Positions 13,654 to 51,659 are shown, counted from the first letter of the stretch. The stretch: 64,000 bases of DNA from Gammaproteobacteria bacterium (GCA_027077805.1 JALWTS010000041.1:73234-137233); one strand, 5' to 3'. Made by a program: numbers and translations. The notes: generated from the sequence alone by a model not told the origin.

Positions 13654-14526
13654 CTAGATTTTATACGATTTTTTTGTTGGCAAGTCTAAATTAAATGATT
13701 GAGGATTAAAACCAAAATCATTACTAGCAGGCTGATGTTCAAAAGTCATATCCTGATTCATACGTTCTGCCATTGCTACGGTCCAATGGCGATACCTTGG
13801 TAATAAATGTAAAAAAAACAATGCCAAGCGAAAAATCCCCAAAGGAATGGTTAAGATTCTAGGTTGACATTTTAATGCTAAAAAAACCCGTTCAACCATT
13901 TGCCGATAACTTAAGATTTCAGCCCCCGAAAGATTATAACTCTGATTTTTTATGGTTTTAGTTGTTAATGCTAAATAACAAGCCATTGCTACATCTTTGG
14001 CATAAACAGGTTGCCGTAAACCTTTCGCTTGACCCAATACAGGAAAAAAACCAAACTTATTAATAAAATTCGCCATGGCAGTAATATTTTTATCCTTACC
14101 CAAATCATAAATCAATGTTGGGCGTAAAATAAGCCATGCTACCTTGGACAAAATTGCTTGTTGTTGCAATTGTTGTTCCCCATTGATTAAACGCTGCACA
14201 ATTTGTTGTTCCGTTGAACTAGACGAATCAACTTTGGTAAAACGACTGGTCGATGATACGACCACAATACGCGTCATACCTGAGGCTAATAACCAATCAA
14301 AATAATCTGCCAATAACCATATTGGCGCTACCCATAACCAATCATTGATTTTAGGCTGTAGTGCGGTATTCATTGGAATTTGTTGCCAGTTAATATTAGG
14401 CGTATTTTTTTGCGGTGCTTTTCTAGAACAAGCAATGATTTGATAATTATTGGCAACTAGTATGGGTAATAAATGTTGTCCTACTAAACTGGTGGCACCG
14501 ACTACGCCTATATGATTATGTGGCAT
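13654..14526 (-). CDS. NAD(P)-binding Rossmann-fold protein (atypical SDR / epimerase-dehydratase-like)
   Basis: N-terminal IGVVGATSLVGQHLLPIL dinucleotide-binding motif. 290 aa. Confidence 0.45.
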   Translation of the reverse strand: MPHNHIGVVGATSLVGQHLLPILVANNYQIIACSRKAPQKNTPNINWQQIPMNTALQPKINDWLWVAPIWLLADYFDWLLASGMTRIVVVSSTSRFTKVDSSSSTEQQIVQRLINGEQQLQQQAILSKVAWLILRPTLIYDLGKDKNITAMANFINKFGFFPVLGQAKGLRQPVYAKDVAMACYLALTTKTIKNQSYNLSGAEILSYRQMVERVFLALKCQPRILTIPLGIFRLALFFLHLLPRYRHWTVAMAERMNQDMTFEHQPASNDFGFNPQSFNLDLPTKKSYKI

Positions 14527-14862
14527 CTAACTTGCCACCAATACACTCGCAATAGCTGAAACTTGTTCAATCACGACATCAGCAGTCGTTTCAATAAACT
14601 GACTATTACGTTGTATATAATCAATTGATTTTAATTGATAAACCAGAATTGCACCTTTTGTTTGTAAATTAGCAGGTAACACAACCTCTAATTGAATATT
14701 TCTAATCGTATGAGTAATTGGTGCAACAATTGCCATTTTAGTATGTTCATTAAACATTTTTTTGGAAATTACAAAGGCAGGTCGTCGTTTAATAATTTCT
14801 TTACCACTACTAGGATCAAAGTTTCACCAAATAATATCGCCTTGTTCAGGAATATAACTCAT
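14527..14862 (-). pseudogene. mazF: mazF/pemK-family toxin gene interrupted by an in-frame TGA (codon 13)
   Basis: Minus-strand ATG at 14862-14860 overlaps the mazE stop (ATGA). Translation is MSYIPEQGDIIW*NFDPSSGKEIIKRRPAFVISKKMFNEHTKMAIVAPIT…, which aligns to MazF (…GDLIWVDFDP…) over 111 codons. The stop is TGA at 14826-14824. The ORF track only recovers the downstream 76-aa piece. Confidence 0.6.
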
Positions 14863-15116
14863 AGGATTTCTTTACCTATTGCTTGCTGGTTTAGCCACTG
14901 CTTATCCTCATCAGTAAACTGCAAATTTTCTTTAGGCGTATTAGCTAATAACTCTTCTAAAGTTAGTGTTGGCTTGGCAGGCGTTAAAATAATTTGATTA
15001 TCTTGAACCGTAATATTCACACAAGAACCCACATTTAAATTTAGTGCGGATAAAATCGTTCTGGGAATACTAATAATATTAGCACCACCTGATTGACGAA
15101 TTACTGCCTGAATCAT
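14859..15116 (-). CDS. mazE: MazE/PemI-family antitoxin (AbrB/SpoVT-type)
   Basis: MIQAVIRQSGGANIISIPRTILSALNLNVGSCVNI…TLEELLANTPKENL aligns with E. coli MazE ([33 protein letters not shown]…TLAELVNDITPENL). Confidence 0.7.
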   Translation of the reverse strand: MIQAVIRQSGGANIISIPRTILSALNLNVGSCVNITVQDNQIILTPAKPTLTLEELLANTPKENLQFTDEDKQWLNQQAIGKEIL

Positions 15117-15202
15117 TGCGAATCTCCATCTAATATCAATTTAAAGTTATACTTTAGTATATGGTACAATAAAGAAGCTATTACTAAAAACAAACATCTA
15201 AT

Positions 15203-16075
15203 TTATTTACTCAAACGCAAACTATAATAAATCGCAATCAAGCTAAACCGCAACCAAACCCCAACCGCAACCCAACCCATTAAACCCCAAGAATATTGTT
15301 GTCGAAAAAACTTGCGATAAAAACGCATCATACCTTTATGTTTATGCCATTCCACAAAAATAGGGCGTGATTTACTACAAACGCCTAAAGCATGGGTAAC
15401 TTTAGCATCAGGCACAAATAGGATTTTCCAGCCCTTTTGCCAAAAACGTAGACACCAATCTAAATCTTCACAATGCAAAAAATAGCCTTCGTCCCAAAGT
15501 CCAACCTCAGTAATCGCCTCAGATTTCACCAACATACAAGCCCCTGAAATCGCCTCGACTTCTATTGGCTTTTTAGGTAATGGTTGTTGATGTAAATGAA
15601 AATCAAAAAATAATTTAGGCCAATATTTTGCGAAACGGTAGAAACCAAAGGCTCGTACTAATGAACGCCAAGGCGTTGGAATCGCACGTCGTCCGCCACC
15701 TTGTTCCGAACCATCAGCATTTAATAATAAAGCACCGACCATACCAATTTTATTATCTGAATCTAAAATTTGGCTTAACTGTTTAATAGTATTGGTTTCT
15801 AAACGACAATCAGGGTTTAAAAATAATAACTGCTTGGTTTTTGCTTGCTTAATACCAATATTACAGGCAGTGGCAAATCCTAAATTTTCAGCATTACGAA
15901 TAATAGTCAGTTTCGCTTCTTGTGGAAACTGTTGTTCACACAAGGCTAAACTGTTATCGTCTGAGGCATTATCAACAATAATAATTTGCCTTACTTGGGT
16001 TAAAATACTGGCAATACACTCCACCAGAAATTGACCCGCATTATAATTAACAATAATTACCGTAATCATACACAA
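15203..16075 (-). CDS. Family 2 glycosyltransferase
   Basis: ITVIIVNYNAGQFLVECIASIL…IIVDNASDDNS is a GT-A DxD-type N-terminus. Confidence 0.7.
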   Translation of the reverse strand: MCMITVIIVNYNAGQFLVECIASILTQVRQIIIVDNASDDNSLALCEQQFPQEAKLTIIRNAENLGFATACNIGIKQAKTKQLLFLNPDCRLETNTIKQLSQILDSDNKIGMVGALLLNADGSEQGGGRRAIPTPWRSLVRAFGFYRFAKYWPKLFFDFHLHQQPLPKKPIEVEAISGACMLVKSEAITEVGLWDEGYFLHCEDLDWCLRFWQKGWKILFVPDAKVTHALGVCSKSRPIFVEWHKHKGMMRFYRKFFRQQYSWGLMGWVAVGVWLRFSLIAIYYSLRLSK

Positions 16076-16179
16076 TAAGCTCTCTATTAATTCTATGACG
16101 ATGGAAATTCATATGTCTATAATTTTTAATTGTTTTAGGAATTATAATGATCGATATTTGCTATTATTGTTCTTAAATG

Positions 16180-17361
16180 TTATACGTCACTAACAATTTT
16201 TTTGTAAATATCATTAACCATTTCAGCACTTTGTTCAATTGAAAAAATTTTTTCAGCCCAAATCTTGGCATTATTTCCCAAGTATTGCCGTAAATCAGTA
16301 TTAGTAATCAATTCTTCTAAAACATCTGCTAATAAAATTGGATCAGGTGACTCAATTGCGATTCCTGTTTGGTTATGGATAATCGCGTCAGGTAAAGGTG
16401 ATGATACAGCTACTACGCTAGGAATGCCATATAAAGCAGCTTCAAATACAGGACGACCTGCTGTATTCAAATAAGAAGGAAAAGCTAAAATATCAATTTC
16501 TGCATAAATTTGATGAACATCCGCTACAAAACCTCTTAATTCAATAAAATCTTCTAAATCATATTGTTGAATTTTCTTAGTTATTTCAGATTTTACATCT
16601 TCGGCAAAACCCAATTGTTTTAACAAATATGCTTTTAATCCCACCAAATAACGTACATTTTCACCTACAATTAAAAGCTTAACTGATAATTTACGCTCCT
16701 TCACCAATATTCTAACTGCCTCAATTAATTCATAAATCCCCCTAAAACGTAACAAATTTCCTAAAAAGCCAACACAGACAACAGCATTTGTTGATACAAA
16801 TTGGGGCTTATTGACATAAAGACCATTATGAATAATCTTTAGTGGTAAAGCAGCGAATAAAGTACAAGCCACACTTTGATCAATTGCAATGACCGCATCG
16901 GCATATTGTTTTAATAATCGATTAATAATTTTTGTTCTTAAAATTGCCTTATTGCTATTTAACTGCACAGAACGGACATGAACAACTAATGGAATTTTTA
17001 ATAACCATTTAGCCAATAAACCAATAGGCAACAAAGTTATCTCATTTAAATGGATTAAATCGAACGATTGTTTTTTTAATTGCCATAACGCCAATAAACT
17101 ATAGGGTAAAAAAAATAATTCTCGAAACAAAATAATCCAACGTAATCCTCGATAATATCCATAACGAGTATGATCAAATTGGCTTAAACCTTTTACAGGA
17201 AAAATATTTAACCCAACTTCAACAAATGCTTGGCAAACAGCGCCCTTTGGTGTAACGACAGTTCCATTGACATTAAATTTTCTCAATAATTTAAACAATT
17301 CAATCAAACTTTTAGCGGCACCACCATAAACAGAAGCTGGATGGAAATATAATACGTTCAC
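16180..17361 (-). CDS. Family 4 (group 1) glycosyltransferase
   Basis: 393 aa with a GT-B C-terminal motif (…GRPVFEAALYGIPSVV…). Confidence 0.6.
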   Translation of the reverse strand: MNVLYFHPASVYGGAAKSLIELFKLLRKFNVNGTVVTPKGAVCQAFVEVGLNIFPVKGLSQFDHTRYGYYRGLRWIILFRELFFLPYSLLALWQLKKQSFDLIHLNEITLLPIGLLAKWLLKIPLVVHVRSVQLNSNKAILRTKIINRLLKQYADAVIAIDQSVACTLFAALPLKIIHNGLYVNKPQFVSTNAVVCVGFLGNLLRFRGIYELIEAVRILVKERKLSVKLLIVGENVRYLVGLKAYLLKQLGFAEDVKSEITKKIQQYDLEDFIELRGFVADVHQIYAEIDILAFPSYLNTAGRPVFEAALYGIPSVVAVSSPLPDAIIHNQTGIAIESPDPILLADVLEELITNTDLRQYLGNNAKIWAEKIFSIEQSAEMVNDIYKKIVSDV

Positions 17362-17638
17362 AATAGCCTTTAATAAATCAATAACCTTTAAGTTGTTTAA
17401 TAAAAAAATATTAGATTGAAACCAAAAACTTCATTAATTCTCTTTCTAAATGTCCAGAAATTAGATTTGCATAACTCACAGTAATATAGTGAGAATCTCG
17501 CCATACAATAACATTATTAGATTAGGTAGTAGTTTCCATATAGCAATAACCAGTACTAAAAATATTACTTTTTAGTACATTCAATAGCATAAGTTTTTAT
17601 TTTAGGCACATTATCATTGACAAACATTATGATAACAA

Positions 17639-19693
17639 CTAGTTATTTCCTTTCCAGGAACTAACTAAGCCCTGAATGTGACTATCACCATCAAAATTAA
17701 CTTTCTGCATCGTCAATAAACTTGAGCTTTTTATTAATTTCGGATAGATCAATAACATCATGTTATAAGCACCCCTAATCGACAAATGGTGATGATCACG
17801 ATAGTATACCTGCCCAACTTTGTCAAAAAACATACACTGCTCGTTGGGACACTGAACATCACGGACAGAAACATAGTTATTGGTTAGACTCTGTAATTTT
17901 TTAGCATAATCCAACTCTTTACGCACAGATTTCATATTAGGTTGACATATTTTATTAAGCCATTCATCTGAAATCACGAAATTAGGAACAGCCCTGCATT
18001 GCGCAATCAACGTATTTGGACGAATAAAATCTTCAAGATATATGGCTTGATGCCCCATTGCTTCTAGTTTAGATAAATGTTGATTTATAATAGGTGCAAC
18101 AAGTTCTGGTTTATCACGCTTGGCACTAGTAATTATAACAACTGCAGGCTTAGTTAGCGTAGACATCCACAACAATACTGACTTATTGCGTTCAATACAT
18201 TGCTGAGTTAAATCGGGTCGTTTAAACTCCCTGATCAACCCATTAAAACCACTTTGTGGTGTGCAACCATTTTGATAAGCAACTAACACATTTGAATCTG
18301 GAAATAATTCTACGAATCCAGCCACAAGATGCAAAGCATGACTATCACCCCAAAGGATAATATCAAGTGAACCATCTCTATGGGTAGCACAAGTAAATAA
18401 ATCACTAGGATATTTTTCACTTGGTGCCCCAGTGCAATAGTTTTTAATTTCAAGTTGTCGCCAATCACGATTGGCCAAATTTATTCGATAGTCAGGTATT
18501 CTGTCTGGAATATGGGATAAAACCACAATAAACAAAACAATACCCATCATTGCCAATGGAAATGTCAATTGGAGCAAGCAATCCTTAAAAGATGTTGCTT
18601 TGTGTGTCCAAATAGACGCATAACGCAATGGAGTTTCAATTGTTTTATTTAAAACAACCGCCATAAACAGCATAGCCCAAAAAAGCAAAATTTGGTCGAT
18701 ATTATCAAGCTCTAAACCATATAGTGCTTTGTAATAAACAATTAATGGCCAATGAACAAGATATAACGAATAGCTTATTTTTCCCAAAAATATGACCACT
18801 CGATGTTCAAATACAATTCTTGCAATAATTGATGCCGCACCTGAAAAAATCATGAGTCCTGCACCAACTGCAGGGAAAAGTGCATTATAATAGGGAAAAA
18901 GGCTGTGCTCATTAAGTAACATTGCAGGTGCAATACATAAAACTAATCCAAGCAAAAAAATAGTATTACCCAGTGTTTTTTTACTTTCTGACAATAAATT
19001 TGGTAAGTAAGCTAATAACGCACCTATACCAAATTCAAAAATACGAAATGGGAACCAGTAAAAGGATGTTGATACACCATCTCTAAAATTTGACATTACT
19101 CCTGTTGAGGATGTGATGTATGACATCACAGTTGTTTCAATTACTAACAGATTAAGTAAAAATGATATCATTGATGCTATCAAAACAGCAATTAACACGC
19201 CATAACGTCCCCAAAAACGATAGGAGAAATACAAAACGAAAGGCCAAAATAGGTAAAATTGTTCCTCAACTCCCAAAGACCATAAATGTAGCAAGGGCTT
19301 AGTTGCAGCAGTAGCATCAAAATAACCGACTTGTGACCAAAAATATATATTAGCCAAACTGAAAATTGAAAAAATACTAGAATCAATCAGATTGCTAAAT
19401 TGTTCATTAGAAAATAATAAGAAACCAACTAATACTGACACTAATACTGTAACAGCCATAGCAGGAAACAAGCGTCTAGCTCTACGCCAATAAAAAGCAG
19501 AAAATCTTATGTTGCCTTGCTCACATTGATCAAGTAATATTTTAGATATTAGAAAACCACTAATAACAAAAAAAATATCAACACCCACAAAACCACCTGG
19601 TAGTAAAGATACGTCTAAATGAGTAGCAATGACCAGTAAAACGGCAAGTGCTCTCATACCATCAATAAATATTAAATATTTCATAATTACCAA
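17639..19693 (-). CDS. Acyltransferase family 3 (OafA-like O-acetyltransferase) with a C-terminal SGNH domain
   Basis: 684 aa. The N-terminal 10-TM acyl_transf_3 pattern is present (…IFIDGMRALAVLLVIATHL…). The C-terminal approximately 300-aa soluble domain is typical of OafA/YrhL glycan O-acetyltransferases. Confidence 0.7.
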   Translation of the reverse strand: MVIMKYLIFIDGMRALAVLLVIATHLDVSLLPGGFVGVDIFFVISGFLISKILLDQCEQGNIRFSAFYWRRARRLFPAMAVTVLVSVLVGFLLFSNEQFSNLIDSSIFSIFSLANIYFWSQVGYFDATAATKPLLHLWSLGVEEQFYLFWPFVLYFSYRFWGRYGVLIAVLIASMISFLLNLLVIETTVMSYITSSTGVMSNFRDGVSTSFYWFPFRIFEFGIGALLAYLPNLLSESKKTLGNTIFLLGLVLCIAPAMLLNEHSLFPYYNALFPAVGAGLMIFSGAASIIARIVFEHRVVIFLGKISYSLYLVHWPLIVYYKALYGLELDNIDQILLFWAMLFMAVVLNKTIETPLRYASIWTHKATSFKDCLLQLTFPLAMMGIVLFIVVLSHIPDRIPDYRINLANRDWRQLEIKNYCTGAPSEKYPSDLFTCATHRDGSLDIILWGDSHALHLVAGFVELFPDSNVLVAYQNGCTPQSGFNGLIREFKRPDLTQQCIERNKSVLLWMSTLTKPAVVIITSAKRDKPELVAPIINQHLSKLEAMGHQAIYLEDFIRPNTLIAQCRAVPNFVISDEWLNKICQPNMKSVRKELDYAKKLQSLTNNYVSVRDVQCPNEQCMFFDKVGQVYYRDHHHLSIRGAYNMMLLIYPKLIKSSSLLTMQKVNFDGDSHIQGLVSSWKGNN

Positions 19694-19710
19694 ACAATGT
19701 TCTACAGAAT

Positions 19711-22524
19711 CTATTTAAGAAATAACTCTGCAGGAATCGGATACGGCAAAGTTTTCATTGGAAAACCAACAAAGGGCTGCTCAAAACCTGCTGCAATTCT
19801 TCGATGCCAAGCTCTAAAGGCAAGATGATTTTCGTGCCTAACGCCAATGATATCTCGCCAACCAATCGCAAAACGTCCGCCACTAGTTAAACTAGTGGAA
19901 CGATGAGTCACTAAAATTGTTAGAGATGATTTCTGTTTTATTGAGGTATCACCAAAAACTGTACGAATACGGGCAACATATTCTGAATCAGCACCTACAC
20001 GAATAGATAAAAAATAACCAATACGTTCAAATACTGAGCGTCGAAACATTAGTGAGATAAACGCTTTACGAATAGCTACACGACGAAAATTAATATGTCC
20101 ATCGCCATCAACCCGAAAATATTTGTGACATACCCCCACAATATCATGATTATTCTCAAGAATTTTGAGTTGTTGTTCAAGCCGTTGTGGATGACTCCAA
20201 TCATCACTATCCATAAAGGTTATATACTCTCCACGAGCATGTGACAAAGCAATATTCTTAGCCACATATGTTCCTGAATTTTGTCCACAACGAAATAAAC
20301 GTATACGTGAATCATGTTTAGCCTGATTTTCAAGCCATTCATAAGTATCATCTAGAGAACAGTCATCAACAATCAATAATTCCAGATTGTGATGAGATTG
20401 ATTTAAAATTGAATCCAGTGCCACCTGCAAAAGTTCATCTCGACCATAAACAGTCATAATCACTGATATTAACGCTTTATCCTGTGTCGTTTTAGGAACA
20501 TCACAACTCAAATTTGCTATCGCTAACCCAGTAGTATTATTTTTGTTGCGGATTGGATGTAAATTATACCGTTCTAAAACACTATTGATAATATCTAATT
20601 GTTTTGAATAATTATCTTGTAATCTAGCGATTTCAGCATGTAACAAATCTACCTCATCATTCTGTGGAAAATCAGTCTTTAACTTTTGATATAACGTATC
20701 TACAATCTCTGCATTGCCAAGATAAGCCTGAGAAAGCACTTCATGGATACGAAAAACACACATAAGCTCCCGAAGTCGCTTCACAATTGACAAATTGTTC
20801 CCTATTTTTAACTTATCAACTAATGTCCGCATACCACCCATAACGGTCAACTGTTCAACAATTGATACTACTTTTTTCCAATCTTGATCTTCATAATAGG
20901 CAATCATTATAGCTGTAGATACAGAAATCAAATAACGATACCCCCCCTGTTGCATATCATGATCTACCACTTTGCGCAACGCTTCTAAAGGGAGAAAGCG
21001 AACACAAGTACGATGTTCTAATTCTAACGCTTTATAATTATAAGGTTTTTTTTGTAAAATTTCGGTACAACATTGCCTTACAAATTGCCAATCTCCCATT
21101 TCATCCGCTAAAACTGCAAACTCTAATAATACAGGAATTGAAAAATTTGACTGCGCTAACAATAATTTGTTTACATCATTTTTTGCATCATTAAGCCTAC
21201 CAGATATACGTTTTACTTTTATGTCAGCAAGTAATTGTGATTCATTTAATAAAGACTTAGATAGGTAAAACTGTTTTCCTTTGTTACCTTCTAGAAAATT
21301 TGCAAGCTTGGACTGATTTGGTATTAGTTTTATAAAATGGTAAAAAAACAAAATCACACTAATTGGCAATTGAATAACAAACTTGATTGGTCGCACTAGC
21401 ATTTGACCTATTTTCCAAGATTTGCTATCTAATACTTCTTGAAGTTTATGCTCAAGTTGCTGGATACGTTTCTTACATTCTTTTTCATTAACTCTATTTT
21501 CGTCCATTTGAACCAAAATATCTCTAGCTTTCTCTTGCATCTTTTGTTGGTAGGTACTATTTTTTGAAAGATTACGATATAATCGAGTAAGTGCTGATAC
21601 TTCTCCACGTAACTGTTTGATTTCAGATAAATCACTATGCAACAATAACAAATTTTCATCCATTTTATTGCCTGCATAAACTGAACTGTGACCAGATGTT
21701 CCAACAACTAATTTACTATCACTTGACAAATTAGTCTCTATGTCTTGCCAATCTTCACCGTTTCTCCAACTAGGATAAATTTCATCCATTAATGCTCCAC
21801 AATGTTTTTTAAAAATTTCACATTGAGTTTCATCCCAATCATGCCAAGTCATAATTTTTTCAGCATAATTAGCTGAAGAAATAGCATTAATATCAGTAGT
21901 ACGTTGATTATGATGTTGAATTACAAAATTAGTAGGAGTAATTTTCAAAAAATCACATAAATCAAGCAAACTATTTGCCAAATTTTCAATGGTTAAAAAG
22001 AAAGTACGTTTAGGAGATATAGACAAAAGATCCTTTTGAATAAGCCTATTATTATAGTTCCAAAACCAACAATTTTTCTCAAATGAGGACCATGATTGCC
22101 ATTCTTCCGTTGAAACTAAACCCAACCTATCCCCTTGAAGTCGCCAACGACGCCATACAATAGCATTCTCAGCAAAATCCATTTCAGTAAACCATCCACG
22201 TTGAACACCAGAACAAACAACATTTCGTCCATCACGAATCAACCAAATATAATAACAGCGATGGAAAGCCTCTTCTAATAAAGGAATAAGCAACGATAAC
22301 TTATTGTTACTTTCGCCGTAATGAATTTCTTTGTTATCACTAGGACGAGTTGCTTTAAGCAATTGAACAATCGCTTTACCACTTAAATCACCATAACGAT
22401 ATTTTGCCGCCTCTTCTACAAGAATTGGTTCAGGTTCATGTAAACATTGGCAATTGGGTGACTGGGAGAGTACACGTGATATCGTGTTACTACCTGCTCG
22501 TCCAGTATTTAAAACAAAAAACAT
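19711..22524 (-). CDS. Multidomain protein: N-terminal sulfotransferase-like domain, central coiled-coil/helical region, C-terminal family 2 glycosyltransferase
   Basis: N-terminus LNTGRAGSNTISRVL resembles the PAPS 5'-phosphosulfate-binding loop of Stf0-type sulfotransferases, and a later RDGRNVVCS resembles a 3'-PB motif. The C-terminus ISVIMTVYGRDELLQVALDSILNQ…LLIVDDCSLDDT…FMDSDDWSHPQRLEQQ is a GT2 domain. 937 aa. Confidence 0.5.
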   Translation of the reverse strand: MFFVLNTGRAGSNTISRVLSQSPNCQCLHEPEPILVEEAAKYRYGDLSGKAIVQLLKATRPSDNKEIHYGESNNKLSLLIPLLEEAFHRCYYIWLIRDGRNVVCSGVQRGWFTEMDFAENAIVWRRWRLQGDRLGLVSTEEWQSWSSFEKNCWFWNYNNRLIQKDLLSISPKRTFFLTIENLANSLLDLCDFLKITPTNFVIQHHNQRTTDINAISSANYAEKIMTWHDWDETQCEIFKKHCGALMDEIYPSWRNGEDWQDIETNLSSDSKLVVGTSGHSSVYAGNKMDENLLLLHSDLSEIKQLRGEVSALTRLYRNLSKNSTYQQKMQEKARDILVQMDENRVNEKECKKRIQQLEHKLQEVLDSKSWKIGQMLVRPIKFVIQLPISVILFFYHFIKLIPNQSKLANFLEGNKGKQFYLSKSLLNESQLLADIKVKRISGRLNDAKNDVNKLLLAQSNFSIPVLLEFAVLADEMGDWQFVRQCCTEILQKKPYNYKALELEHRTCVRFLPLEALRKVVDHDMQQGGYRYLISVSTAIMIAYYEDQDWKKVVSIVEQLTVMGGMRTLVDKLKIGNNLSIVKRLRELMCVFRIHEVLSQAYLGNAEIVDTLYQKLKTDFPQNDEVDLLHAEIARLQDNYSKQLDIINSVLERYNLHPIRNKNNTTGLAIANLSCDVPKTTQDKALISVIMTVYGRDELLQVALDSILNQSHHNLELLIVDDCSLDDTYEWLENQAKHDSRIRLFRCGQNSGTYVAKNIALSHARGEYITFMDSDDWSHPQRLEQQLKILENNHDIVGVCHKYFRVDGDGHINFRRVAIRKAFISLMFRRSVFERIGYFLSIRVGADSEYVARIRTVFGDTSIKQKSSLTILVTHRSTSLTSGGRFAIGWRDIIGVRHENHLAFRAWHRRIAAGFEQPFVGFPMKTLPYPIPAELFLK

Positions 22525-22591
22525 TCAATATCCTCATTAATTAAACAAAAATTTAAAAGTAATAGTGTCATACAGCAATAACTTAAAATAT

Positions 22592-24214
22592 CTAAACTAA
22601 ATCCCCATAACCCCGAGTTTTCGCCCCAACCCAATAATCAACTGTTGCACCAATATCCAATGCAACACATCCTTGTTGGGCAAGTTGTGCAACAAAAATT
22701 TTACCAATAATACCACCCGCAACTAATGCCAAAGTTCCAGGCATAGTTTCTTTTTTTAAATTATTCAATATTGAATTGAAACAATTGGGGAGAATGGTAG
22801 AGTTATTGTAAAAAATTTTGTTAGATAAAGTTTTTGCATGAGTTGGAATTTTGTAAATTTCAATATTGTTTTTAACAAAAAAATTTCCAAAAAAGTCCAT
22901 AATGTAATCTTCATTTATACTAGAAACAATAACCAATTTTTCTGCGGAATTAGAAAGTTTTTTAATATAACTTTCATCAAATACTACCTGATGTACACGT
23001 TCTTCAGTCAATACGACTTCTTTATGAACAATCTCCGGCAAATGCTTCATAACTGTTAAAAGTGCTCTGCCACCATGCATAGATTGAAAGTTTTGCAAAC
23101 GAGGATTCGTATCTCGAATAAAACGATAAATACTTGGAATACCAAGCACATCAACAAAATCTAAAGCATCCTGTAATTGACACCTAATATTTCCCCTCAA
23201 TTCTTCACTTAGTTCTGTTCCCCACCAATGACGTTCACGCAATCGTTGATCATCAACGACAGCGAAATCAGTTGAATTATTCCAGATGTATGATTCGCCA
23301 TCACCTAGTCTAATGAGTGATAGCCTTTCTTTTTTAATCAATTTTTTTTCCAAAAAACTAGTAAAGGCTTCTTTATCAACTGGATTTACTCGAACATCCA
23401 TAAATTTCATTTGTTGACGCAAATGGTTATAGACAGGAATAACATATTGTTCCAATTCGTGACGAAATCCTTTAGGAGCATAATTCAACAAAAGTTGTTC
23501 TTGATTTTGATGACTAAGGCGATATTGCTGATCCAGCAACAGACTAGATTCTATCTCACTAAGCTTTAATTTTTCTAATCCATTCTCAATAGACAACATA
23601 TTATACACTTGTTTGTATTTTTTTTCTCCTTGCTTAGTTGCTAATCTTAATAAACCAGCCTTTTGCACGGTTCGCAAAGAACTCGGCTTACTAAAAACTG
23701 ATGCGTCAAAAAAAGCTTCTAACATATGAATTTTCTCACTTTTTAATAACATTGCAAATACAACATTTTCAAAACGAGCTCTTTTCACTGATGTGTATAA
23801 TGGGAAAAATTTTATCACTTGGCTTAATTCTTCTTCAGACAGTACAGAACCACTAAAATCACGTTGATTCAACCACAACCATAACTTGATAGAAGAATTA
23901 GTCACTGCTATAACCTCTTGCGAAGATAATTCATAAAACAGTTTGTGAATGATTTCACTACGTTCATTAAATAATATTTCTAATACTGAAAGCAATTGTT
24001 CATTTGGAAGATTTGCTTGAGCTTCAAGTTTAGTTAAGGTCATCATTGGATCTTTTGCATGAAGCAATGCAATTTCAATTAAATCTTGTGAGATATTTGC
24101 CTGAATATTATTTAAGTAACGATCAGCTAATAAAGTTACAGCTTGCTCTGTTAACTCGGGTGTTTTATCTAATAGCCAAAATACAACTTTTATTACTAAC
24201 AATTTGAACTTCAT
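22592..24214 (-). CDS. Hypothetical protein; the C-terminal half may be a GT-D/DUF1792-like glycosyltransferase
   Basis: 540 aa. LIRLGDGESYIWN and …LALVAGGIIGKIF…DIGATVDYW resemble the DUF1792 GDGE / DxE pattern. This is a weak call. Confidence 0.3.
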   Translation of the reverse strand: MKFKLLVIKVVFWLLDKTPELTEQAVTLLADRYLNNIQANISQDLIEIALLHAKDPMMTLTKLEAQANLPNEQLLSVLEILFNERSEIIHKLFYELSSQEVIAVTNSSIKLWLWLNQRDFSGSVLSEEELSQVIKFFPLYTSVKRARFENVVFAMLLKSEKIHMLEAFFDASVFSKPSSLRTVQKAGLLRLATKQGEKKYKQVYNMLSIENGLEKLKLSEIESSLLLDQQYRLSHQNQEQLLLNYAPKGFRHELEQYVIPVYNHLRQQMKFMDVRVNPVDKEAFTSFLEKKLIKKERLSLIRLGDGESYIWNNSTDFAVVDDQRLRERHWWGTELSEELRGNIRCQLQDALDFVDVLGIPSIYRFIRDTNPRLQNFQSMHGGRALLTVMKHLPEIVHKEVVLTEERVHQVVFDESYIKKLSNSAEKLVIVSSINEDYIMDFFGNFFVKNNIEIYKIPTHAKTLSNKIFYNNSTILPNCFNSILNNLKKETMPGTLALVAGGIIGKIFVAQLAQQGCVALDIGATVDYWVGAKTRGYGDLV

Positions 24215-25290
24215 TATAAAGATTCTTTTGATTTTGACAACTGAATATCAACAATTAAATCCTTTAACACCAAATACTCCGTATTTAAGGCTCTCATCCC
24301 TGTTAATAGACTTTGTAATATACCAAACAAAAAACGAACAATAAAAAAAACAATAAGCATATCACCAAGATTTTCAGTATTCACATCAAATTCCATTACA
24401 TAAATCACGGTTGAAGCAAAAAAAACGCCCAAAATTACTCTAAGAATTAATTGAACAATTTTTGCGTCAAGCTGTCCTCTTTTCTTTGACAGTTCTAATT
24501 TTTTGTTTTTATCTGAATAACATACCTTGTGATAGTAATCTTGGAAATCAGAATCTACATCCCCTAAATTACTTTGTTTCATCAAATTTTGCTTTAAACT
24601 TTTATCAAGTTCTTTTAGCTTCTTTTCCATTGATTTTGTTTGATTTGTCTGATAATAACTTTTCCATAAAAACACTGGAATCAAAACAATCATAATAGCT
24701 ATTAAAATAATTGTCATAATCGGCATAAAATAAGCAATAATAACCAAGCTTAACAGGATTACCCCAAGATTTTGTAATAACTCAAACAAATGAAATATAA
24801 CATTTATTATCGCTTTACCAAATTGTGGATCAGTTTGAAAAATAAATTGATGAAGTATTTTTGATTTCTCTTTATCTGCCTCTTGTGATTTTTGGTGTTG
24901 TTCAAAAAAGATATTCGCCTTAATTTTACGAAATTTACTTGTTCTTGAATAAGAGTATTTTGATATTTTAATAGAATAAACTAACGGTAAAATTGCCGAC
25001 AATATAAATAACAATAAAATAAAACATGCCACCACCAAAATAAAAGTTCTCTCGGATATGGGTGGAAATTGATATGCAATTAACCCATCTAAAATATTTT
25101 GTATATCACCACTATGAACTAATACAATACTTTTGATTGATACCATAAAAGCAACAATAATAATCATTTTGGAAACAATACCACTAAAATTCAACAAAAT
25201 AAAAGTTAATGGCTTATCTAAAAATAATGTTTTAGCAAATATTGATATAGTTTTAAAATAACTGACGGCACTATTGTAAAAAAAAGACAT
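24214..25290 (-). CDS. Polytopic inner-membrane protein (ABC-exporter-like transmembrane domain without an NBD), unknown function
   Basis: 358 aa with about 6 hydrophobic helices. It sits in the glycan cluster and shares a start/stop with the next gene. Confidence 0.3.
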   Translation of the reverse strand: MSFFYNSAVSYFKTISIFAKTLFLDKPLTFILLNFSGIVSKMIIIVAFMVSIKSIVLVHSGDIQNILDGLIAYQFPPISERTFILVVACFILLLFILSAILPLVYSIKISKYSYSRTSKFRKIKANIFFEQHQKSQEADKEKSKILHQFIFQTDPQFGKAIINVIFHLFELLQNLGVILLSLVIIAYFMPIMTIILIAIMIVLIPVFLWKSYYQTNQTKSMEKKLKELDKSLKQNLMKQSNLGDVDSDFQDYYHKVCYSDKNKKLELSKKRGQLDAKIVQLILRVILGVFFASTVIYVMEFDVNTENLGDMLIVFFIVRFLFGILQSLLTGMRALNTEYLVLKDLIVDIQLSKSKESL

Positions 25291-25480
25291 GAAAAACCTA
25301 AACTCTTAACAAAATAACTGTTGCATTGCACTTAGTTTAAAATAATAAATAAACATAAACGGTTAAACTAAAAGCAAATTTAATGTTATTTAACTATATT
25401 TTAACCACATTTTTTTAATTTTAGAGTACAATTCAAAACACAAAATAGCAATTTCAATTTATCTATCACTAATAACAAAC

Positions 25481-26035
25481 TCAATCAAACAACTCTGCCT
25501 CTTTAAATAAAGAACCCTGTCTATCTTTTGTTGAAAGTGTAATATCCAATTTTTTATCAACCAACCAATCAATCTTTAAACTCGCATCATTCCAAGCAAT
25601 ACAACGCTCTAATTCAGGGGCATAATAGTTCGTGGTTTTATACAAAAATTCCGCCGTGTCTGATAAAGTTAAAAAACCGTGCGCAAAACCTTCTGGAATC
25701 CAAAGTTGATGATGATTTTCAGATGATAATCCCGCACTTACCCATTGCCCAAAAGTTGGCGACGAACGCCGAATATCCACCGCAACATCTAAAACTTTAC
25801 CTTGTACTACTCTGACTAATTTGCCTTGCGCTTTAGGGTTTAATTGATAATGTAACCCTCTTAATACGCCTTTGACTGATTTAGAATGATTATCTTGGAC
25901 AAACTCACAATTTAATCCTGTCAATGCTTTAAATACTTTCGCATTAAAACTTTCAAAGAAAAAACCACGATGATCACCAAATACTTTGGGTTGCAATAAA
26001 ATCACATCAGGAATTGCTAAAGGGGTTGCTTGCAT
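25481..26035 (-). CDS. rfbC: dTDP-4-dehydrorhamnose 3,5-epimerase
   Basis: 184-aa RmlC cupin (…VFGDHRGFFFESFN…). Confidence 0.9.
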   Translation of the reverse strand: MQATPLAIPDVILLQPKVFGDHRGFFFESFNAKVFKALTGLNCEFVQDNHSKSVKGVLRGLHYQLNPKAQGKLVRVVQGKVLDVAVDIRRSSPTFGQWVSAGLSSENHHQLWIPEGFAHGFLTLSDTAEFLYKTTNYYAPELERCIAWNDASLKIDWLVDKKLDITLSTKDRQGSLFKEAELFD

Positions 26036-26921
26036 TAAAATACTCTTTCTTGCAGTAAAAGTTGTAAATATTGACCGTAACTGTTTTTTATTAAGGGTTG
26101 ACTTAATTGTTCTAATTGTTGATCATCAATCCAATGTTGTCGCCAAGCAATTTCTTCAGGACAAGCCACTTTTAAACCTTGGCGTTTTTCCAAAGTCGCA
26201 ATAAAATGACTGGCTTCTAATAATGAATCATGGGTTCCCGTATCCAACCAAGCATAACCTCTCCCCATAATCTCAACCGATAATTGCTGTTGTGCTAAAT
26301 ACAACGCATTAATATCGGTAATTTCCAACTCACCTCTAGCAGAAGGTTTTAATTGTTTTGCCATTTCTATCACTTGATTATCATAAAAATACAAGCCTGT
26401 TACCGCATAATGCGATTTCGGGTTTGCAGGTTTTTCTTCCAATGACAAGACTTGTCCCGTTTGGTCAAACTCAACGACACCATAACGTTCAGGGTCATGC
26501 ACATGATAAGCAAATACACTCGCACCTGCTTGACGCTGAGCCGCATTCGCTAATAAATGATGAAAATCATGGCCATAAAAAATATTATCCCCTAAAATTA
26601 AGGCACAGCAGTCTTGAGCAATAAATTCATCACCCAGAATAAATGCTTGGGCTAAACCATCAGGACTTGCTTGCACTTGATACTGTAAATTTAACCCCCA
26701 TTGTTGACCATCACCTAATAGTCGCTGAAACGCAGGCATATCATGTGGGGTTGAAATAATCAAAATATCTTGAATCCCTGCTAACATCAATGTGCTTAGT
26801 GGATAATAAATCATAGGTTTATCATAAACAGGCAGTAGTTGTTTGGAAATTGATAAAGTCGCAGGATATAAGCGAGTACCACTGCCTCCCGCAAGAACAA
26901 TCCCTTTACAAATACTCATTA
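26035..26921 (-). CDS. rfbA: Glucose-1-phosphate thymidylyltransferase
   Basis: [42 protein letters not shown]. The start is taken at the internal Met, which overlaps the rfbD stop. Confidence 0.9.
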
Positions 26922-27812
26922 TAACTGTCCTTGTAAAGCCAGTTCTGCCACCAAGCGTTTTACCTGAACTTGCCAATCGGGTAATACCAATCCAAATTGT
27001 TGTTTGATTTTATCGGTATTTAAACGAGAATTTAAGGGTCGTGTTGCGGGGGTTGGATAAGCACTCGTTTTAATAGGAATGATTTGCTCAGGACTAATTT
27101 TTAATTCCGCCCCTGCTTGAATTGCTTCAGTAATGACCAATTTTGCAAACTCATGCCAATTCGTCTCACCTGACGCCACCAAATGATATAATCCACTGGC
27201 ATTATTGCCTTGCTTAAATTGCAATAAACACATCGCCGTAATATCCGCAATTAATTCGGCACTGGTTGGCACGCCAACTTGATCAACCACTACTTTTAAC
27301 TGTTCCCGTTGCTTTGCTAATCGTAACATAGTTCTAGCAAAATTATGACCTAGGCGAGCATAAACCCAACTGGTGCGAAAAATAAAATGTTGACAAGCCA
27401 CGTCAGCTATCAATTGCTCGCCTAGTTGCTTGGTTTGACCATAGACACTTTGGGGAGAGGTCGCATCGCTTTCTAAATAAGGTGAATCTTTAGTGCCATC
27501 AAACACATAATCGGTGGAATAATGCACTAAACAACCATTAATTTGCTTTACTGCTTCGGCAATCACTTTCACCGCTTGGGCATTGACAATATTAGCTAAT
27601 TCAGGCTCTGACTCCGCTTTATCTACGGCGGTATAAGCAGCAGCATTCACTACGATATCAGGTGATAATTTGAGGATACAATCACCTAATTTATCTAACT
27701 CAATAAAATCTACTTCCGTTTGATCAAAAGCGGTAACTGTTCCTAAGGGTAATAATGCCCGTTGCAATTCCCAACCAACTTGCCCTTGTTTGCCTAATAA
27801 TAATATGTTCAT
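26919..27812 (-). CDS. rfbD: dTDP-4-dehydrorhamnose reductase
   Basis: [16 protein letters not shown]… RmlD Rossmann fold. It is translationally coupled to rfbB. Confidence 0.85.
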
Positions 27813-50208: not shown

Positions 50209-50212
50209 TAAT

Positions 50213-51085: not shown

Positions 51086-51099
51086 ATTCAGACAGGAAG

Positions 51100-51145
51100 A
51101 AATAAAGGACAAATTTGTCAACTCATTTGTCCTTTATTTTTTATT
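51100..51145. terminator. Bidirectional terminator (14-bp stem)
   Basis: AAATAAAGGACAAA-…-TTTGTCCTTTATTT followed by a T-run. It lies between convergent genes. Confidence 0.6.
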
Positions 51146-51162
51146 TTTGAAAATTTTGGCGA

Positions 51163-51552: not shown

Positions 51553-51659
51553 CCTTTATTAAAAAATTAAAAACATTGCTTTCATTATAGTGATGATTTC
51601 AGTCATGCACATTAAAATCTTGCAAAATTTCCATAATTTAGCGAAAATGTCTTTTAGTG

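What the first reader, a model, noticed from the sequence alone, without database searches (positions are those of the whole stretch)
15203..25480. AT-rich (about 30% GC) glycan-modification block abutting the rmlBDAC operon: GT2, GT4, OafA-type acyltransferase, sulfotransferase-GT2 fusion and two unknown proteins
Seen directly: base composition drops sharply between about 16.1 kb and 25.45 kb relative to the flanking gcv genes and the rml operon, and a 190-nt AT-rich spacer at 25291-25480 marks the boundary. All genes are co-oriented with rmlBDAC. Content is two glycosyltransferases (15203..16075, 16180..17361), an acyltransferase-3/SGNH O-acetyltransferase, a 937-aa sulfotransferase-like/GT2 fusion, a 540-aa protein with a possible DUF1792 GDGE motif and a polytopic membrane protein. 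Inference: this is a horizontally acquired or rapidly diverging serotype-specific cassette making an O-acetylated, possibly sulfated, rhamnose-containing surface polysaccharide. No wzx/wzy/wzz or ABC-NBD genes are visible, so the export route is unclear. The 358-aa membrane protein and the 540-aa protein are candidate novel components.
Basis: partly seen in the sequence, partly recalled or inferred. Interest (0 to 1): 0.55.

Follow-up and report, generated by a model that had tools for sequence, protein, structure and literature searches.

The report
AT-rich rhamnose glycan sulfation/acetylation gene cassette
This is a real, compositionally foreign six-gene block behind the rhamnose-precursor operon of an uncultured gammaproteobacterium. 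It most likely builds, sulfates and O-acetylates a surface sugar polymer, and it includes a very rare membrane protein that has the fold of an ABC exporter but no ATPase.

Summary
Window 15203-25480 is 32.6% GC against 38.1% elsewhere, and no other stretch of the same length falls below 36.4%. All six genes lie on the minus strand downstream of rmlBDAC, and the 190-nt spacer is 21% GC. The domain calls were right: GT2, GT4, AT3-SGNH, and a 937-aa protein with a GT2 C-terminus.

New results:
- The 937-aa N-terminus has both PAPS-binding motifs and a TPST-like catalytic Glu. A likely coiled coil follows it.
- These parts recur together in unrelated metagenomic glycan loci.
- A decayed mazEF pair marks the far boundary.

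Export route, acceptor and chemistry remain unknown. No wzx, wzy, wzm/wzt, primer transferase or ABC ATPase lies in the 64 kb. No close relatives exist for a strain comparison.

Verdict: a new variant of a known kind, of moderate interest.

The parts
27809..28864 (-). rmlB (dTDP-glucose 4,6-dehydratase), first gene of the precursor operon
   Evidence: Called gene with Epimerase/GDP_Man_Dehyd/RmlD_sub_bind Pfam hits; ORF. GC 36.7%.
26919..27812 (-). rmlD (dTDP-4-dehydrorhamnose reductase)
   Evidence: 297-aa called gene with RmlD_sub_bind.
26035..26919 (-). rmlA (glucose-1-phosphate thymidylyltransferase)
   Evidence: 294-aa called gene with NTP_transferase.
25481..26035 (-). rmlC (dTDP-4-dehydrorhamnose 3,5-epimerase)
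   Evidence: PF00908 at 2.5e-75. TIGR01221 equivalog at 267 bits, above its 155.75 cutoff.
25291..25480 (.). 190-nt AT-rich spacer (21% GC) between rmlC and the cassette
   Evidence: Sequence read; GC. The consensus scan found no terminator-like or strong promoter-like site here.
24214..25290 (-). 358-aa membrane protein with the type IV ABC-exporter transmembrane fold and no nucleotide-binding domain. Its stop overlaps the next gene's start by 1 nt.
22592..24214 (-). 540-aa protein: N-terminal alpha-solenoid/TPR-like domain (about residues 1-270) plus C-terminal GT-D-fold glycosyltransferase (about 285-540) with DxE at D305/E307
21730..22524 (-). 937-aa protein, module 1 (about aa 1-265): sulfotransferase-like P-loop domain
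   Evidence: Sulfotransfer_3 at E 0.0084, sub-threshold. Four homologues are 37-48% identical and all carry precomputed PF13469. Invariant T7-G-R9-x-G-S12 (5'-PSB-like), H29-E30-P31 and W94-L-x-R97-D-G-R100...S105 (3'-PB-like). The profile against PDB matched TPST1/2 at E 2e-3 to 9e-3, with R9 on the PRSGTT Arg and E30 on the second Glu of CGEETR.
21400..21657 (-). 937-aa protein, module 2 (about aa 290-375): probable coiled coil, followed by a hydrophobic segment (about aa 372-402)
   Evidence: My own heptad-periodicity heuristic. The segment is free of Pro and Gly, rich in E/K/R/Q/L, and shows the strongest 3.5-residue periodicity in the protein. Homologues P0033 and P0034 conserve this segment and end soon after it. 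No formal coiled-coil predictor or structure model was run.
20545..21312 (-). 937-aa protein, module 3 (about aa 405-660): unannotated region preceding the GT2 domain
   Evidence: No Pfam hit and no PDB sequence hit. Its last part (from about aa 576-646) aligns with the N-terminal extensions of stand-alone GT2 homologues in L002, L005, L094, L106 and L128.
19711..20472 (-). 937-aa protein, module 4 (about aa 685-937): GT2 glycosyltransferase with DSDD
   Evidence: PF00535 at 1.5e-33. It is 29-39% identical to GT2 genes that sit beside GT-D-like, membrane-protein or AT3-SGNH genes in five other loci.
17639..19693 (-). 684-aa AT3-SGNH two-domain O-acyltransferase (OafA/OafB type)
   Evidence: PF01757 at 1.4e-29 and PF19040 at 2.2e-23. 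Homologous AT3-SGNH genes lie next to GT-D-like genes in L089, L091, L092 and L106, next to the sulfotransferase-coil gene in L128, and next to a membrane-protein homologue in L133.
16180..17361 (-). 393-aa GT4 (GT-B fold) glycosyltransferase; lowest GC3 in the window (20%)
   Evidence: Glycos_transf_1 at 2.8e-23 and Glyco_transf_4 at 2.2e-11; GC3 z = -3.1.
15203..16075 (-). 290-aa GT2 glycosyltransferase. Its best NCBIfam hit is the rhamnosyltransferase subfamily, below cutoff. Composition is native-like.
   Evidence: PF00535 at 1e-24. TIGR01556 at E 4.3e-24 but 85 bits against a cutoff of 200. GC 37.3%, z = -0.6.
14859..15116 (-). mazE-type antitoxin gene (85 aa) at the distal edge of the cassette
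   Evidence: Translation; PF04014 at 6.4e-9.
14527..14862 (-). pemK/mazF-type toxin pseudogene with an in-frame TGA at codon 13
   Evidence: Translation. PF02452 at 2.4e-20 when the stop is read as Trp.
13654..14526 (-). 290-aa atypical SDR (NAD-dependent epimerase/dehydratase family) between the toxin-antitoxin remnant and gcvT; whether it belongs to the cassette is uncertain
   Evidence: PF01370 at 1.3e-8. GC 36.2%, z = -1.0. It is absent beside gcvT in 80 distant-relative loci.

Best explanation
The block is a mosaic, probably horizontally assembled cassette for building and decorating a surface polysaccharide of the O-antigen or capsule type. It is placed directly downstream of rmlBDAC, which supplies dTDP-L-rhamnose.

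Shown:
- Four glycosyltransferase modules of three folds: a GT2, a GT4, a GT-D with DxE, and a second GT2.
- A cytoplasmic sulfotransferase-like module with both PAPS-binding motifs.
- An AT3-SGNH acyltransferase.
- A membrane protein with the ABC-exporter transmembrane fold and no ATPase.
- Recurrent co-location of the last four kinds of gene in unrelated glycan loci.

Inferred mechanism:
1. A lipid-linked primer is made by a transferase encoded elsewhere.
2. The GT2 and GT4 enzymes extend it at the cytoplasmic face, and the GT-D enzyme plus the GT2 module of the 937-aa protein elongate it.
3. The N-terminal module of the 937-aa protein transfers sulfate from PAPS. A coiled coil holds this module away from the GT2 module, as in WbdD, WbbB and ORF6(O7) terminator/ruler proteins. 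The sulfate may therefore be a chain-end cap rather than, or as well as, a side decoration.
4. After export, the AT3-SGNH enzyme O-acetylates the glycan on the periplasmic side.
5. The 358-aa protein, presumably as a dimer, is either the translocation device for this anionic lipid-linked glycan or the membrane dock for the soluble solenoid/GT-D and 937-aa enzymes. As a translocator it could be driven by the proton gradient, as SbmA is, or by an ATPase encoded elsewhere.
For: - Composition and boundaries. The toxin-antitoxin remnant at the edge.
- Domain assignments.
- GT-D fold and DxE; defining feature from PMC9804384.
- Sulfotransferase motifs and TPST alignment. [quoted passage not shown]
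- ABC-exporter fold without an ATPase. No Walker A plus signature ORF in the window or in any family locus, with a positive control found. SbmA is the precedent for a proton-driven protein with this fold (PMC13316013).
- Module recurrence. The membrane-protein homologue sits next to a GT-D-like gene in L002, L003 and L094, and weakly in L098-102. It sits next to sulfotransferases in L003, L006/L007 and L130-132, and next to AT3-SGNH in L133. GT-D-like genes sit next to AT3-SGNH in L089, L091, L092 and L106. L128 carries sulfotransferase-coil, then AT3-SGNH, then a GT2 like the 937-aa C-terminus, which is the window's gene order with the fusion split.
- All homologue contexts are polysaccharide loci, carrying pseBCFGHI-like genes, WecA-like genes, KpsC/S-like genes plus an ABC-2 transporter, or Wzx/Wzy.
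- Terminator / coiled-coil / GT architecture: PMC11231755.
- AT3-SGNH as a two-domain surface-carbohydrate acetyltransferase: PMC7448272 and PMC9558356.
Against: - No primer transferase, flippase, polymerase, ligase, Wzm/Wzt or PAPS-synthesis gene lies in the 64 kb, so pathway type and acceptor are unknown.
- The coiled coil rests on my own periodicity heuristic.
- Known terminator/ruler systems sit with Wzm/Wzt, which is absent here. One sulfotransferase homologue (P0035) lies in a Wzx/Wzy locus and has no coil.
- The membrane protein is not next to GT-D-like genes in most of the 36 loci fetched. The L092 neighbour is not demonstrably homologous.
- The GC deviation is moderate (about 5.5 points), and polysaccharide and membrane-protein genes are often AT-rich anyway.
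- Rhamnose use by any of these transferases is unproven. The rhamnosyltransferase subfamily hit is far below cutoff.
Confidence: 0.6

Rival explanations
1. Protein O-glycosylation system. The cassette would decorate a secreted or surface protein (a pilin, an adhesin or, if present, a flagellin) rather than a lipid-linked polysaccharide. The alpha-solenoid/TPR-like domain of the 540-aa enzyme and the unannotated middle of the 937-aa enzyme would serve as protein-substrate binding domains.
Against: Every homologue context recovered is a polysaccharide locus: WecA-like or PglF-like genes, KpsC/S-like genes plus ABC-2, Wzx/Wzy, or a nonulosonic-acid pathway. AT3-SGNH enzymes act on surface carbohydrates outside the cytoplasm. 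No candidate serine-rich or repeat substrate gene is adjacent. The second-best fold matches are TagA/TarA, which act on lipid-linked acceptors.
Confidence: 0.12
2. There is no sulfation. The N-terminal module of the 937-aa protein would be a degenerate or repurposed P-loop domain (for example a kinase-like or purely structural head). The product would then be only an O-acetylated glycan.
For: The Pfam Sulfotransfer_3 score is below the gathering threshold (16.8 against 27 bits). PDB profile matches are weak (E 2e-3 to 9e-3) and cover mainly the two nucleotide-binding motifs. The 5'-PSB motif is TGRAGS rather than the canonical PRSGTT/PKSGTT. No PAPS-synthesis genes are in the window.
Against: All four homologues carry precomputed PF13469. 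Arg9, Glu30, and R97/R100/S105 in the RDGR...S motif are invariant, and Arg9 and Glu30 align with the TPST catalytic Arg and Glu. Homologues of the partner membrane protein sit beside unambiguous sulfotransferases (E 1e-16 to 5e-21) and sulfatases in other loci.
Confidence: 0.15
3. The block is not horizontally acquired. The low GC would reflect local mutational or selective bias, as AT-rich membrane and polysaccharide genes under diversifying selection often show, in a block long resident in this lineage.
For: The deviation is modest. The AT3-SGNH and first GT2 genes are within 1 sd of background GC3. Other isolated genes in the window are equally AT-rich, for example 31989-32804 at 31.9% and 57683-58264 at 33.2%. 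No integrase, tRNA or flanking repeat adjoins the block.
Against: Four adjacent genes have GC3 z-scores of -2.1 or lower, and GC3 is the codon position least constrained by protein composition. No other 10.3-kb window falls below 36.4%. A mazE / decayed mazF pair sits exactly at the distal junction. The nearest homologues of the different genes come from loci of very different GC, 27-67%. None of 80 gcvT loci from other Gammaproteobacteria and beyond has rml or cassette genes nearby.
Confidence: 0.25
4. The 358-aa protein is a translocator only together with an unlinked ATPase. It would be the membrane half of a split ABC exporter of the PglK/Wzk/MsbA/NdvA type whose nucleotide-binding subunit is encoded elsewhere in the genome.
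Confidence: 0.15

Closest known systems
ABC-transporter-dependent O-polysaccharide terminator/ruler/polymerase proteins (E. coli O9a WbdD, K. pneumoniae O12 WbbB, K. pneumoniae O7 ORF6; PMC11231755, PMC3482155)
   Same: The order of modules in the 937-aa protein is the same: an N-terminal non-GT modifying enzyme with a nucleotide-binding fold, then a Pro/Gly-free heptad-periodic segment, then a hydrophobic or amphipathic segment, then a C-terminal GT2 module. As reported for ORF6(O7) orthologues, some homologues (P0033, P0034) stop after the coil while others are fused to a GT.
   Different: The head is sulfotransferase-like, not a methyltransferase, kinase or Kdo transferase. No Wzm/Wzt transporter or carbohydrate-binding module is nearby. 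The coil is short (about 85 residues) and is only heuristically predicted.
GT-D glycosyltransferases (DUF1792 of Streptococcus dGT1; PDB 4PFX/5V4A)
   Different: Only 18% identity. It is fused to a 270-residue alpha-solenoid instead of a GT-A domain. It is found in Gram-negative polysaccharide loci rather than adhesin glycosylation loci. Many relatives carry a further unannotated N-terminal domain of about 430 aa.
Type IV ABC exporters that move glycans or lipids (MsbA, PglK, NdvA) and the NBD-less SbmA/BacA (SLiPT) transporters
   Different: No Pfam ABC_membrane or SbmA_BacA hit. At 358 aa it is shorter than SbmA. Its gene context is glycan sulfation, acetylation and GT-D rather than peptide uptake. 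Transport is not shown.
OafA/OafB AT3-SGNH O-antigen acetyltransferases (PMC7448272)
   Same: Both domains are present in the same order with strong Pfam scores.
   Different: Substrate and acyl group are unknown. No solved-structure relative was found by sequence.
Sulfated capsular and exopolysaccharide loci of bacteria (Vibrio sp. KMM 8419 and Cobetia marina CPS, cyanobacterial synechan; PMC11641403, PMC11766843, PMC8205485)
   Same: A sulfotransferase gene is embedded in a polysaccharide gene cluster.
   Different: I only saw the titles and abstracts of these papers. In this cassette the sulfotransferase is fused through a coiled coil to a GT2 and is accompanied by the NBD-less ABC-fold protein. 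No Wzx/Wzy or Wza/b/c genes are present.

Membership tests
GT-D fold glycosyltransferases (DUF1792 / PF22882 GT-D-like) | Pfam model hit above the gathering score | tested here: met
   PF22882 at 32.9 bits against a cutoff of 27, E 5.4e-8, residues 285-363. 15 of the 17 proteins the homologue search returned (the query itself included) carry it precomputed.
GT-D fold glycosyltransferases (DUF1792 / PF22882 GT-D-like) | Three-dimensional GT-D fold | tested here: met
GT-D fold glycosyltransferases (DUF1792 / PF22882 GT-D-like) | DxE motif that binds Mn2+ (PMC9804384) | tested here: met
   D305-G-E307 is invariant in six sequences and E307 is at least 90% conserved in 17. Metal binding itself is not testable here.
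Sulfotransferases (PAPS-dependent, P-loop fold) | 5'-phosphosulfate-binding and 3'-phosphate-binding motifs | tested here: met
   T7-G-R-x-G-S12 and R97-D-G-R...S105 are invariant in five sequences and align to the corresponding TPST motifs. The 5' motif is a variant (GRAGS, not PRSGT).
Sulfotransferases (PAPS-dependent, P-loop fold) | Pfam Sulfotransfer_3 hit above the gathering score | tested here: not met
   16.8 bits against a cutoff of 27 for the window protein. The homologues have precomputed PF13469 hits, and the look-ups flag those of P0033 and P0035 as 'faint'.
Sulfotransferases (PAPS-dependent, P-loop fold) | Catalytic base and Arg equivalent to TPST2 Glu99 and Arg78 | tested here: inconclusive
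   The HMMER alignment places R9 on the PRSGTT Arg and E30 on the second Glu of CGEETR. Both are invariant. No structure model was available to confirm the geometry.
ABC transporters (type IV exporters) | Transmembrane-domain fold of six long helices | tested here: met
ABC transporters (type IV exporters) | Nucleotide-binding domain with Walker A/B and the LSGGQ signature, fused or adjacent | tested here: not met
   The protein ends about 20 residues after the last transmembrane helix. No such ORF was found in the 64-kb window or in any family locus, and the control was detected. It is therefore not filed as an ABC transporter.
SbmA/BacA (SLiPT) secondary transporters | Sequence membership (Pfam SbmA_BacA) | tested here: not met
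WbdD/WbbB-type chain terminator / molecular ruler proteins | Coiled coil separating a terminating enzyme from polymerase GT modules | tested here: inconclusive
   The module order fits, and residues 290-375 are heptad-periodic and free of Pro and Gly. No coiled-coil predictor or model was run.
WbdD/WbbB-type chain terminator / molecular ruler proteins | Operates with a Wzm/Wzt ABC transporter in the same locus | tested here: not met
   No ABC2_membrane or ABC_tran gene is in the window.
OafA/OafB-type AT3-SGNH acyltransferases | N-terminal Acyl_transf_3 domain fused to a C-terminal SGNH domain | tested here: met
   PF01757 at 103.7 bits and PF19040 at 83.7 bits, both above cutoff.
rmlBDAC dTDP-L-rhamnose pathway | All four enzymes present and contiguous | tested here: met
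   The RmlC equivalog is above cutoff. RmlB, RmlD and RmlA are supported by Pfam families on the called genes.
Genomic island / horizontally acquired cassette | Deviant composition with sharp boundaries | tested here: met
   32.6% against 38.1% GC. Four genes have GC3 z-scores of -2.1 or lower. A 21% GC spacer lies at one edge.
Genomic island / horizontally acquired cassette | Mobility or addiction genes, tRNA, or repeats at the borders | tested here: inconclusive
   Only a mazE / decayed mazF pair at the distal border. No integrase or tRNA within 23 kb.
Genomic island / horizontally acquired cassette | Variable presence among close relatives | not testable with these tools
   The best GcvT match in the species-representative genomes is 56-57% identical. 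All cassette proteins looked up (four of the six) are singletons at 90% identity.

The most novel reading that the evidence does not exclude
The 358-aa family (about 10 representatives among 1.84 billion proteins) would be a previously unrecognised ATPase-independent translocation or assembly platform for anionic, sulfated lipid-linked glycans. That would be a route distinct from the Wzx/Wzy, Wzm/Wzt and synthase routes. It would work with a GT-D polymerase and with a sulfotransferase / coiled-coil / GT2 protein in which sulfate serves as the chain-terminating cap that sets polymer length.
Probability: 0.12. Interest if true: 0.8.

Novelty: new variant of a known kind. Interest (0 to 1): 0.5.

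Why it matters
Bacterial surface-glycan pathways are sorted into a few export and chain-length-control schemes. Known chain-terminating caps are methyl, phosphomethyl and Kdo.

This cassette has no recognisable exporter. It carries an ABC-exporter-fold protein without an ATPase, and homologues of that protein recur in sulfotransferase-bearing glycan loci. It also carries a terminator-style protein whose head looks like a sulfotransferase.

If either part works as proposed, the known repertoire of glycan export or length control would grow. It would also provide enzymes for making sulfated polysaccharides in bacteria.

If not, this remains one more variable, AT-rich glycan locus, with a well-supported Gram-negative GT-D enzyme.

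Tried and rejected
1. Strain or relative comparison. A scan of 185,579 species genomes with GcvT found nothing closer than 56-57% identity. None of the 80 loci had rml, the SDR, rpoH or cassette genes nearby. Variability could therefore not be tested.

2. Exact-sequence and 90%-cluster look-ups. All cassette proteins found are singletons from one metagenome (ENA ERZ23491061; also an NCBI contig of 144,902 nt).

3. Word-indexed homologue search for the membrane protein found only the protein itself. The exhaustive phmmer search was needed.

A six-sequence alignment (A5) worked.

5. I suspected that the 590-670-aa six-helix proteins beside GT-D genes were full-length ABC exporters. They are AT3-SGNH acyltransferases.

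6. I tested whether the six-helix neighbours in L098 and L092 belong to the 358-aa family. hhalign gave 69% and 15% probability, so this is unresolved or negative.

7. BLASTP of the 937-aa protein against the L006 sulfotransferases was not significant beyond the RDGR/RDPR motif.

8. The middle of the 937-aa protein has no Pfam or PDB sequence match.

9. The promoter/terminator scan gave no more sites than shuffled sequence and none in the spacer.

10. The Rfam and tRNA scans found nothing in or near the block.

11. The AlphaFold-database fold library was unavailable.

Full report
OBSERVATION

The compositional drop is real. Window 15203-25480 is 32.6% GC, against 38.1% for the rest of the 64 kb. 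Among 166 other windows of the same length, none is below 36.4%. The 190-nt spacer at 25291-25480 is 21% GC.

Third-position GC is the codon position least tied to protein composition. Its z-scores against 50 background genes (29.1 +/- 2.9%) are:
- GT4: -3.1
- 358-aa gene: -2.5
- 937-aa gene: -2.2
- 540-aa gene: -2.1
- AT3-SGNH gene: -1.0
- First GT2 (15203-16075): -0.1

'About 30%' is a slight overstatement.

All ORF coordinates are right, and all six genes share the minus strand with rmlB, rmlD, rmlA and rmlC. In transcription order the layout is:
rmlBDAC, spacer, 358-aa, 540-aa (1-nt overlap), 937-aa, AT3-SGNH, GT4, GT2, a 676-nt gap, an SDR, then gcvT-H-PA-PB.

Pfam and NCBIfam confirm GT2, GT4, Acyl_transf_3+SGNH, the C-terminal GT2 of the 937-aa protein, and GT-D-like in the 540-aa protein. 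Sulfotransfer_3 is only a sub-threshold hit.

Scanning the other ORFs of the window found pilus/secretion, glycine-cleavage, BatA-D/MoxR and other housekeeping genes. It found no wzx, wzy, wzz, wzm/wzt, primer transferase or ABC ATPase.

SOURCE

The sequence is from a metagenome (ENA ERZ23491061; also an NCBI contig of 144,902 nt). Every cassette protein found in the 15-billion-protein collection is a singleton at 90% identity.

The closest GcvT in one genome per species (185,579 species) is only 56-57% identical and comes from assorted Gammaproteobacteria.

THE 540-AA PROTEIN

The word-indexed search found only 17 proteins (the query itself plus 16 relatives) in 5.8 billion clusters, many about 930 aa long.

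An AlphaFold2 model built on these is confident (pLDDT 86.5, pTM 0.86):

The DxE motif that defines GT-D enzymes (PMC9804384) is present as D305-G-E307 and is conserved. I file this protein as a GT-D-fold glycosyltransferase. Its donor and acceptor are unknown.

THE 358-AA PROTEIN

It has no family hit and no word-indexed homologue. An exhaustive phmmer search of 1.84 billion representatives found 10 proteins, all 315-378 aa.

The evidence for its fold:
- A profile of the family weakly matches the MsbA transmembrane domain, in register (E 0.03).

The protein ends just after the sixth helix. No ORF with a Walker A plus ABC signature exists in the window or in any locus that carries a family member. 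The one known ABC ATPase among the fetched loci was detected as a control.

It therefore has the fold of an ABC exporter but fails a defining feature of the family. SbmA shows that this fold can run on the proton gradient (PMC13316013). Sequence membership in SbmA_BacA is not met either.

THE 937-AA PROTEIN

The first 320 residues have four homologues (37-48% identity), all with precomputed Sulfotransfer_3 hits.

The alignment shows these invariant features:
- T7-G-R9-x-G-S12, a 5'-PSB-like motif
- H29-E30-P31
- W94-L-x-R97-D-G-R100...S105, a 3'-PB-like motif

The profile's best solved relatives are tyrosylprotein sulfotransferases (E 2e-3 to 9e-3). In that alignment R9 lies on the PRSGTT arginine and E30 on the second Glu of CGEETR. 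These two motifs are common to all sulfotransferases, and Arg78, Glu99 and Lys158 are catalytic in TPST2 (PMC10951654). That the aligned positions are Arg78 and Glu99 rests on my own knowledge of the TPST2 numbering.

The domain starts at residue 1 with no signal peptide, so it is cytoplasmic.

The remaining modules are:
- Residues about 290-375 are free of Pro and Gly, rich in E/K/R/Q/L, and show the strongest 3.5-residue periodicity in the protein (my heuristic). Two homologues keep this segment and end after it.
- A hydrophobic segment follows at about 372-402.
- An unannotated region follows at 405-660.
- A GT2 domain with DSDD ends the protein.

This order is head enzyme, coil, membrane-proximal segment, GT module. 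It is the layout of the WbdD, WbbB and ORF6(O7) terminator/ruler proteins of ABC-transporter-dependent O-antigen synthesis, whose orthologues also occur with and without fused GTs (PMC11231755). The resemblance is architectural only. The Wzm/Wzt partner is absent here.

RECURRENCE ELSEWHERE

I fetched the contexts of homologues. I searched them with HMMs and BLAST built from the window proteins and with Pfam.

A homologue of the membrane protein lies in these contexts:
- Beside a GT-D-like gene in L003 and L094, in the same locus in L002, and weakly in L098-102.
- Beside sulfotransferase genes in L003, L006/L007 and L130-132. The last three also carry an asparagine-synthase-like gene, and L130-132 carry a sulfatase.
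- Beside an AT3-SGNH gene in L133/134.

Other recurring pairings:
- GT-D-like genes lie next to AT3-SGNH genes in L089, L091, L092 and L106.
- GT2 genes homologous to the C-terminal third of the 937-aa protein lie in L002, L005, L094, L106 and L128.
- L128 reads sulfotransferase-coil, AT3-SGNH, then that GT2. This is the window's gene order with the fusion split.

The wider contexts are all polysaccharide loci. They include a pseBCFGHI-like pathway with a WecA-like gene (L004), KpsC/S-like genes with an ABC-2 transporter (L005), PglF-like and WecA-like genes (L098), and Wzx/Wzy (L125).

The host loci range from 27% to 67% GC. The parts thus form a loosely linked, widely scattered gene set. The window's copy is a mosaic whose pieces have different nearest relatives.

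BOUNDARIES

The 676-nt 'gap' at 14527-15202 holds two genes:
- A mazE-type antitoxin gene (14859-15116; PF04014 at 6e-9).
- Overlapping it by ATGA, a pemK/mazF-type toxin gene with an in-frame TGA at codon 13 (14527-14862; PF02452 at 2e-20 when the stop is read as Trp).

A decayed addiction module exactly at the distal junction fits insertion of foreign DNA. No integrase or tRNA is nearby. The only tRNA is at 51.7 kb, next to an integrase at 49.0-50.2 kb.

MOST LIKELY FUNCTION

Shown: the domain and fold identities, the absence of an ATPase, the composition, and the gene co-occurrence.

Inferred:
1. RmlBDAC supplies dTDP-L-rhamnose.
2. A lipid-linked primer made elsewhere is extended at the cytoplasmic face by the GT2 and GT4 enzymes. 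It is elongated by the GT-D enzyme and the GT2 module of the 937-aa protein.
3. The sulfotransferase head adds sulfate from PAPS, either along the chain or as a terminal cap that limits length.
4. The product is exported.
5. The AT3-SGNH enzyme then O-acetylates it outside the cytoplasm, as OafA/OafB do (PMC7448272, PMC9558356).
6. The 358-aa protein is either the translocation device or the membrane dock for the soluble enzymes.

My confidence levels are:
- About 0.6 for the overall reading as a polysaccharide assembly and decoration cassette.
- About 0.7-0.8 that the head domain is a true sulfotransferase.
- About 0.3-0.4 that the head domain acts as a chain terminator.
- About evenly split between translocator and scaffold for the membrane protein.

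RIVALS

- Protein glycosylation (0.12). GT-D precedent and the 540-aa protein's solenoid/TPR-like domain favour it. All homologue contexts argue against it.
- No real sulfation (0.15).
- AT-richness without horizontal transfer (0.25).
- A split ABC exporter with an unlinked ATPase (0.15).

These address different aspects of the finding, so they need not sum to one.

NOVELTY AND SCORE

A glycan cassette next to rml genes is ordinary. Three features are not:
- A vanishingly rare ABC-fold protein without an ATPase, tied to glycan loci that carry sulfotransferase, GT-D or AT3-SGNH genes.
- A sulfotransferase head in a terminator-style fusion.
- GT-D enzymes with solenoid domains in Gram-negative polysaccharide loci.

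None of these functions is shown. I rate the finding a new variant of a known kind, with interest 0.5.

Noticed in passing
window 14527-15116 (minus strand): A mazE antitoxin gene, followed with an ATGA overlap by a pemK/mazF toxin gene that carries an in-frame TGA at codon 13. This is a decayed toxin-antitoxin pair in what looked like an empty 676-nt gap between the GT2 and the SDR.
   Followed up: yes
window about 19648 (inside the AT3-SGNH gene, 45 nt from its start): A second assembly of the same sequence (ENA scaffold_248, 77,098 nt) ends here. The NCBI contig and the window continue through. An assembly break inside the cassette could reflect strain heterogeneity or a coverage change at this point.
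   Followed up: no
P0005, P0007, P0009; L090 8612-11422; L091-L093; L095-L100: Most relatives of the 540-aa protein are 880-1120 aa. They carry an extra N-terminal domain of about 430 aa with conserved NDHSP...QHAE-type motifs and no Pfam match.
   Followed up: no
P0017 (768 aa), C-terminal about 230 residues: A GT-D-like relative has a C-terminal extension that begins YLISGHPRSGTGY, a canonical sulfotransferase 5'-PSB-like P-loop. This would be an independent fusion linking GT-D enzymes with sulfotransferase-like domains. Pfam reported only the GT-D-like domain.
   Followed up: partly
L006 875-7738; L007 1161-5082; L130-L132 2395-11077: The closest and some distant homologues of the 358-aa protein sit in a different conserved set: an asparagine-synthase-like gene plus two large (650-730 aa) sulfotransferase-domain proteins. 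L130-132 also carry a GT4 and a sulfatase. L006 comes from a very fragmented NCBI assembly (GCA_024449665.1).
   Followed up: partly
window 31989-32804 (+): A 271-aa ORF with no Pfam family. It is as AT-rich as the cassette (31.9% GC, GC3 z = -2.1) and is isolated among native-composition genes.
   Followed up: no
window 49015-51733: A phage-type integrase (49015-50208), an alpha/beta hydrolase (50144-51085) and tRNA-Arg(CCG) (51660-51733). This may be a small integrated element unrelated to the cassette.
   Followed up: no
window 46003-48285 (+): A 760-aa ORF with no Pfam family at E <= 1e-5, between the rph/rdgB-type genes and the integrase.
   Followed up: no
window 13654-14526 (minus strand): An atypical SDR/epimerase-family gene lies 41 nt upstream of gcvT. 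No homologue lies next to gcvT in any of 80 loci from other bacteria. It is unclear whether it belongs to the glycan block, to the gcv operon, or to neither.
   Followed up: partly
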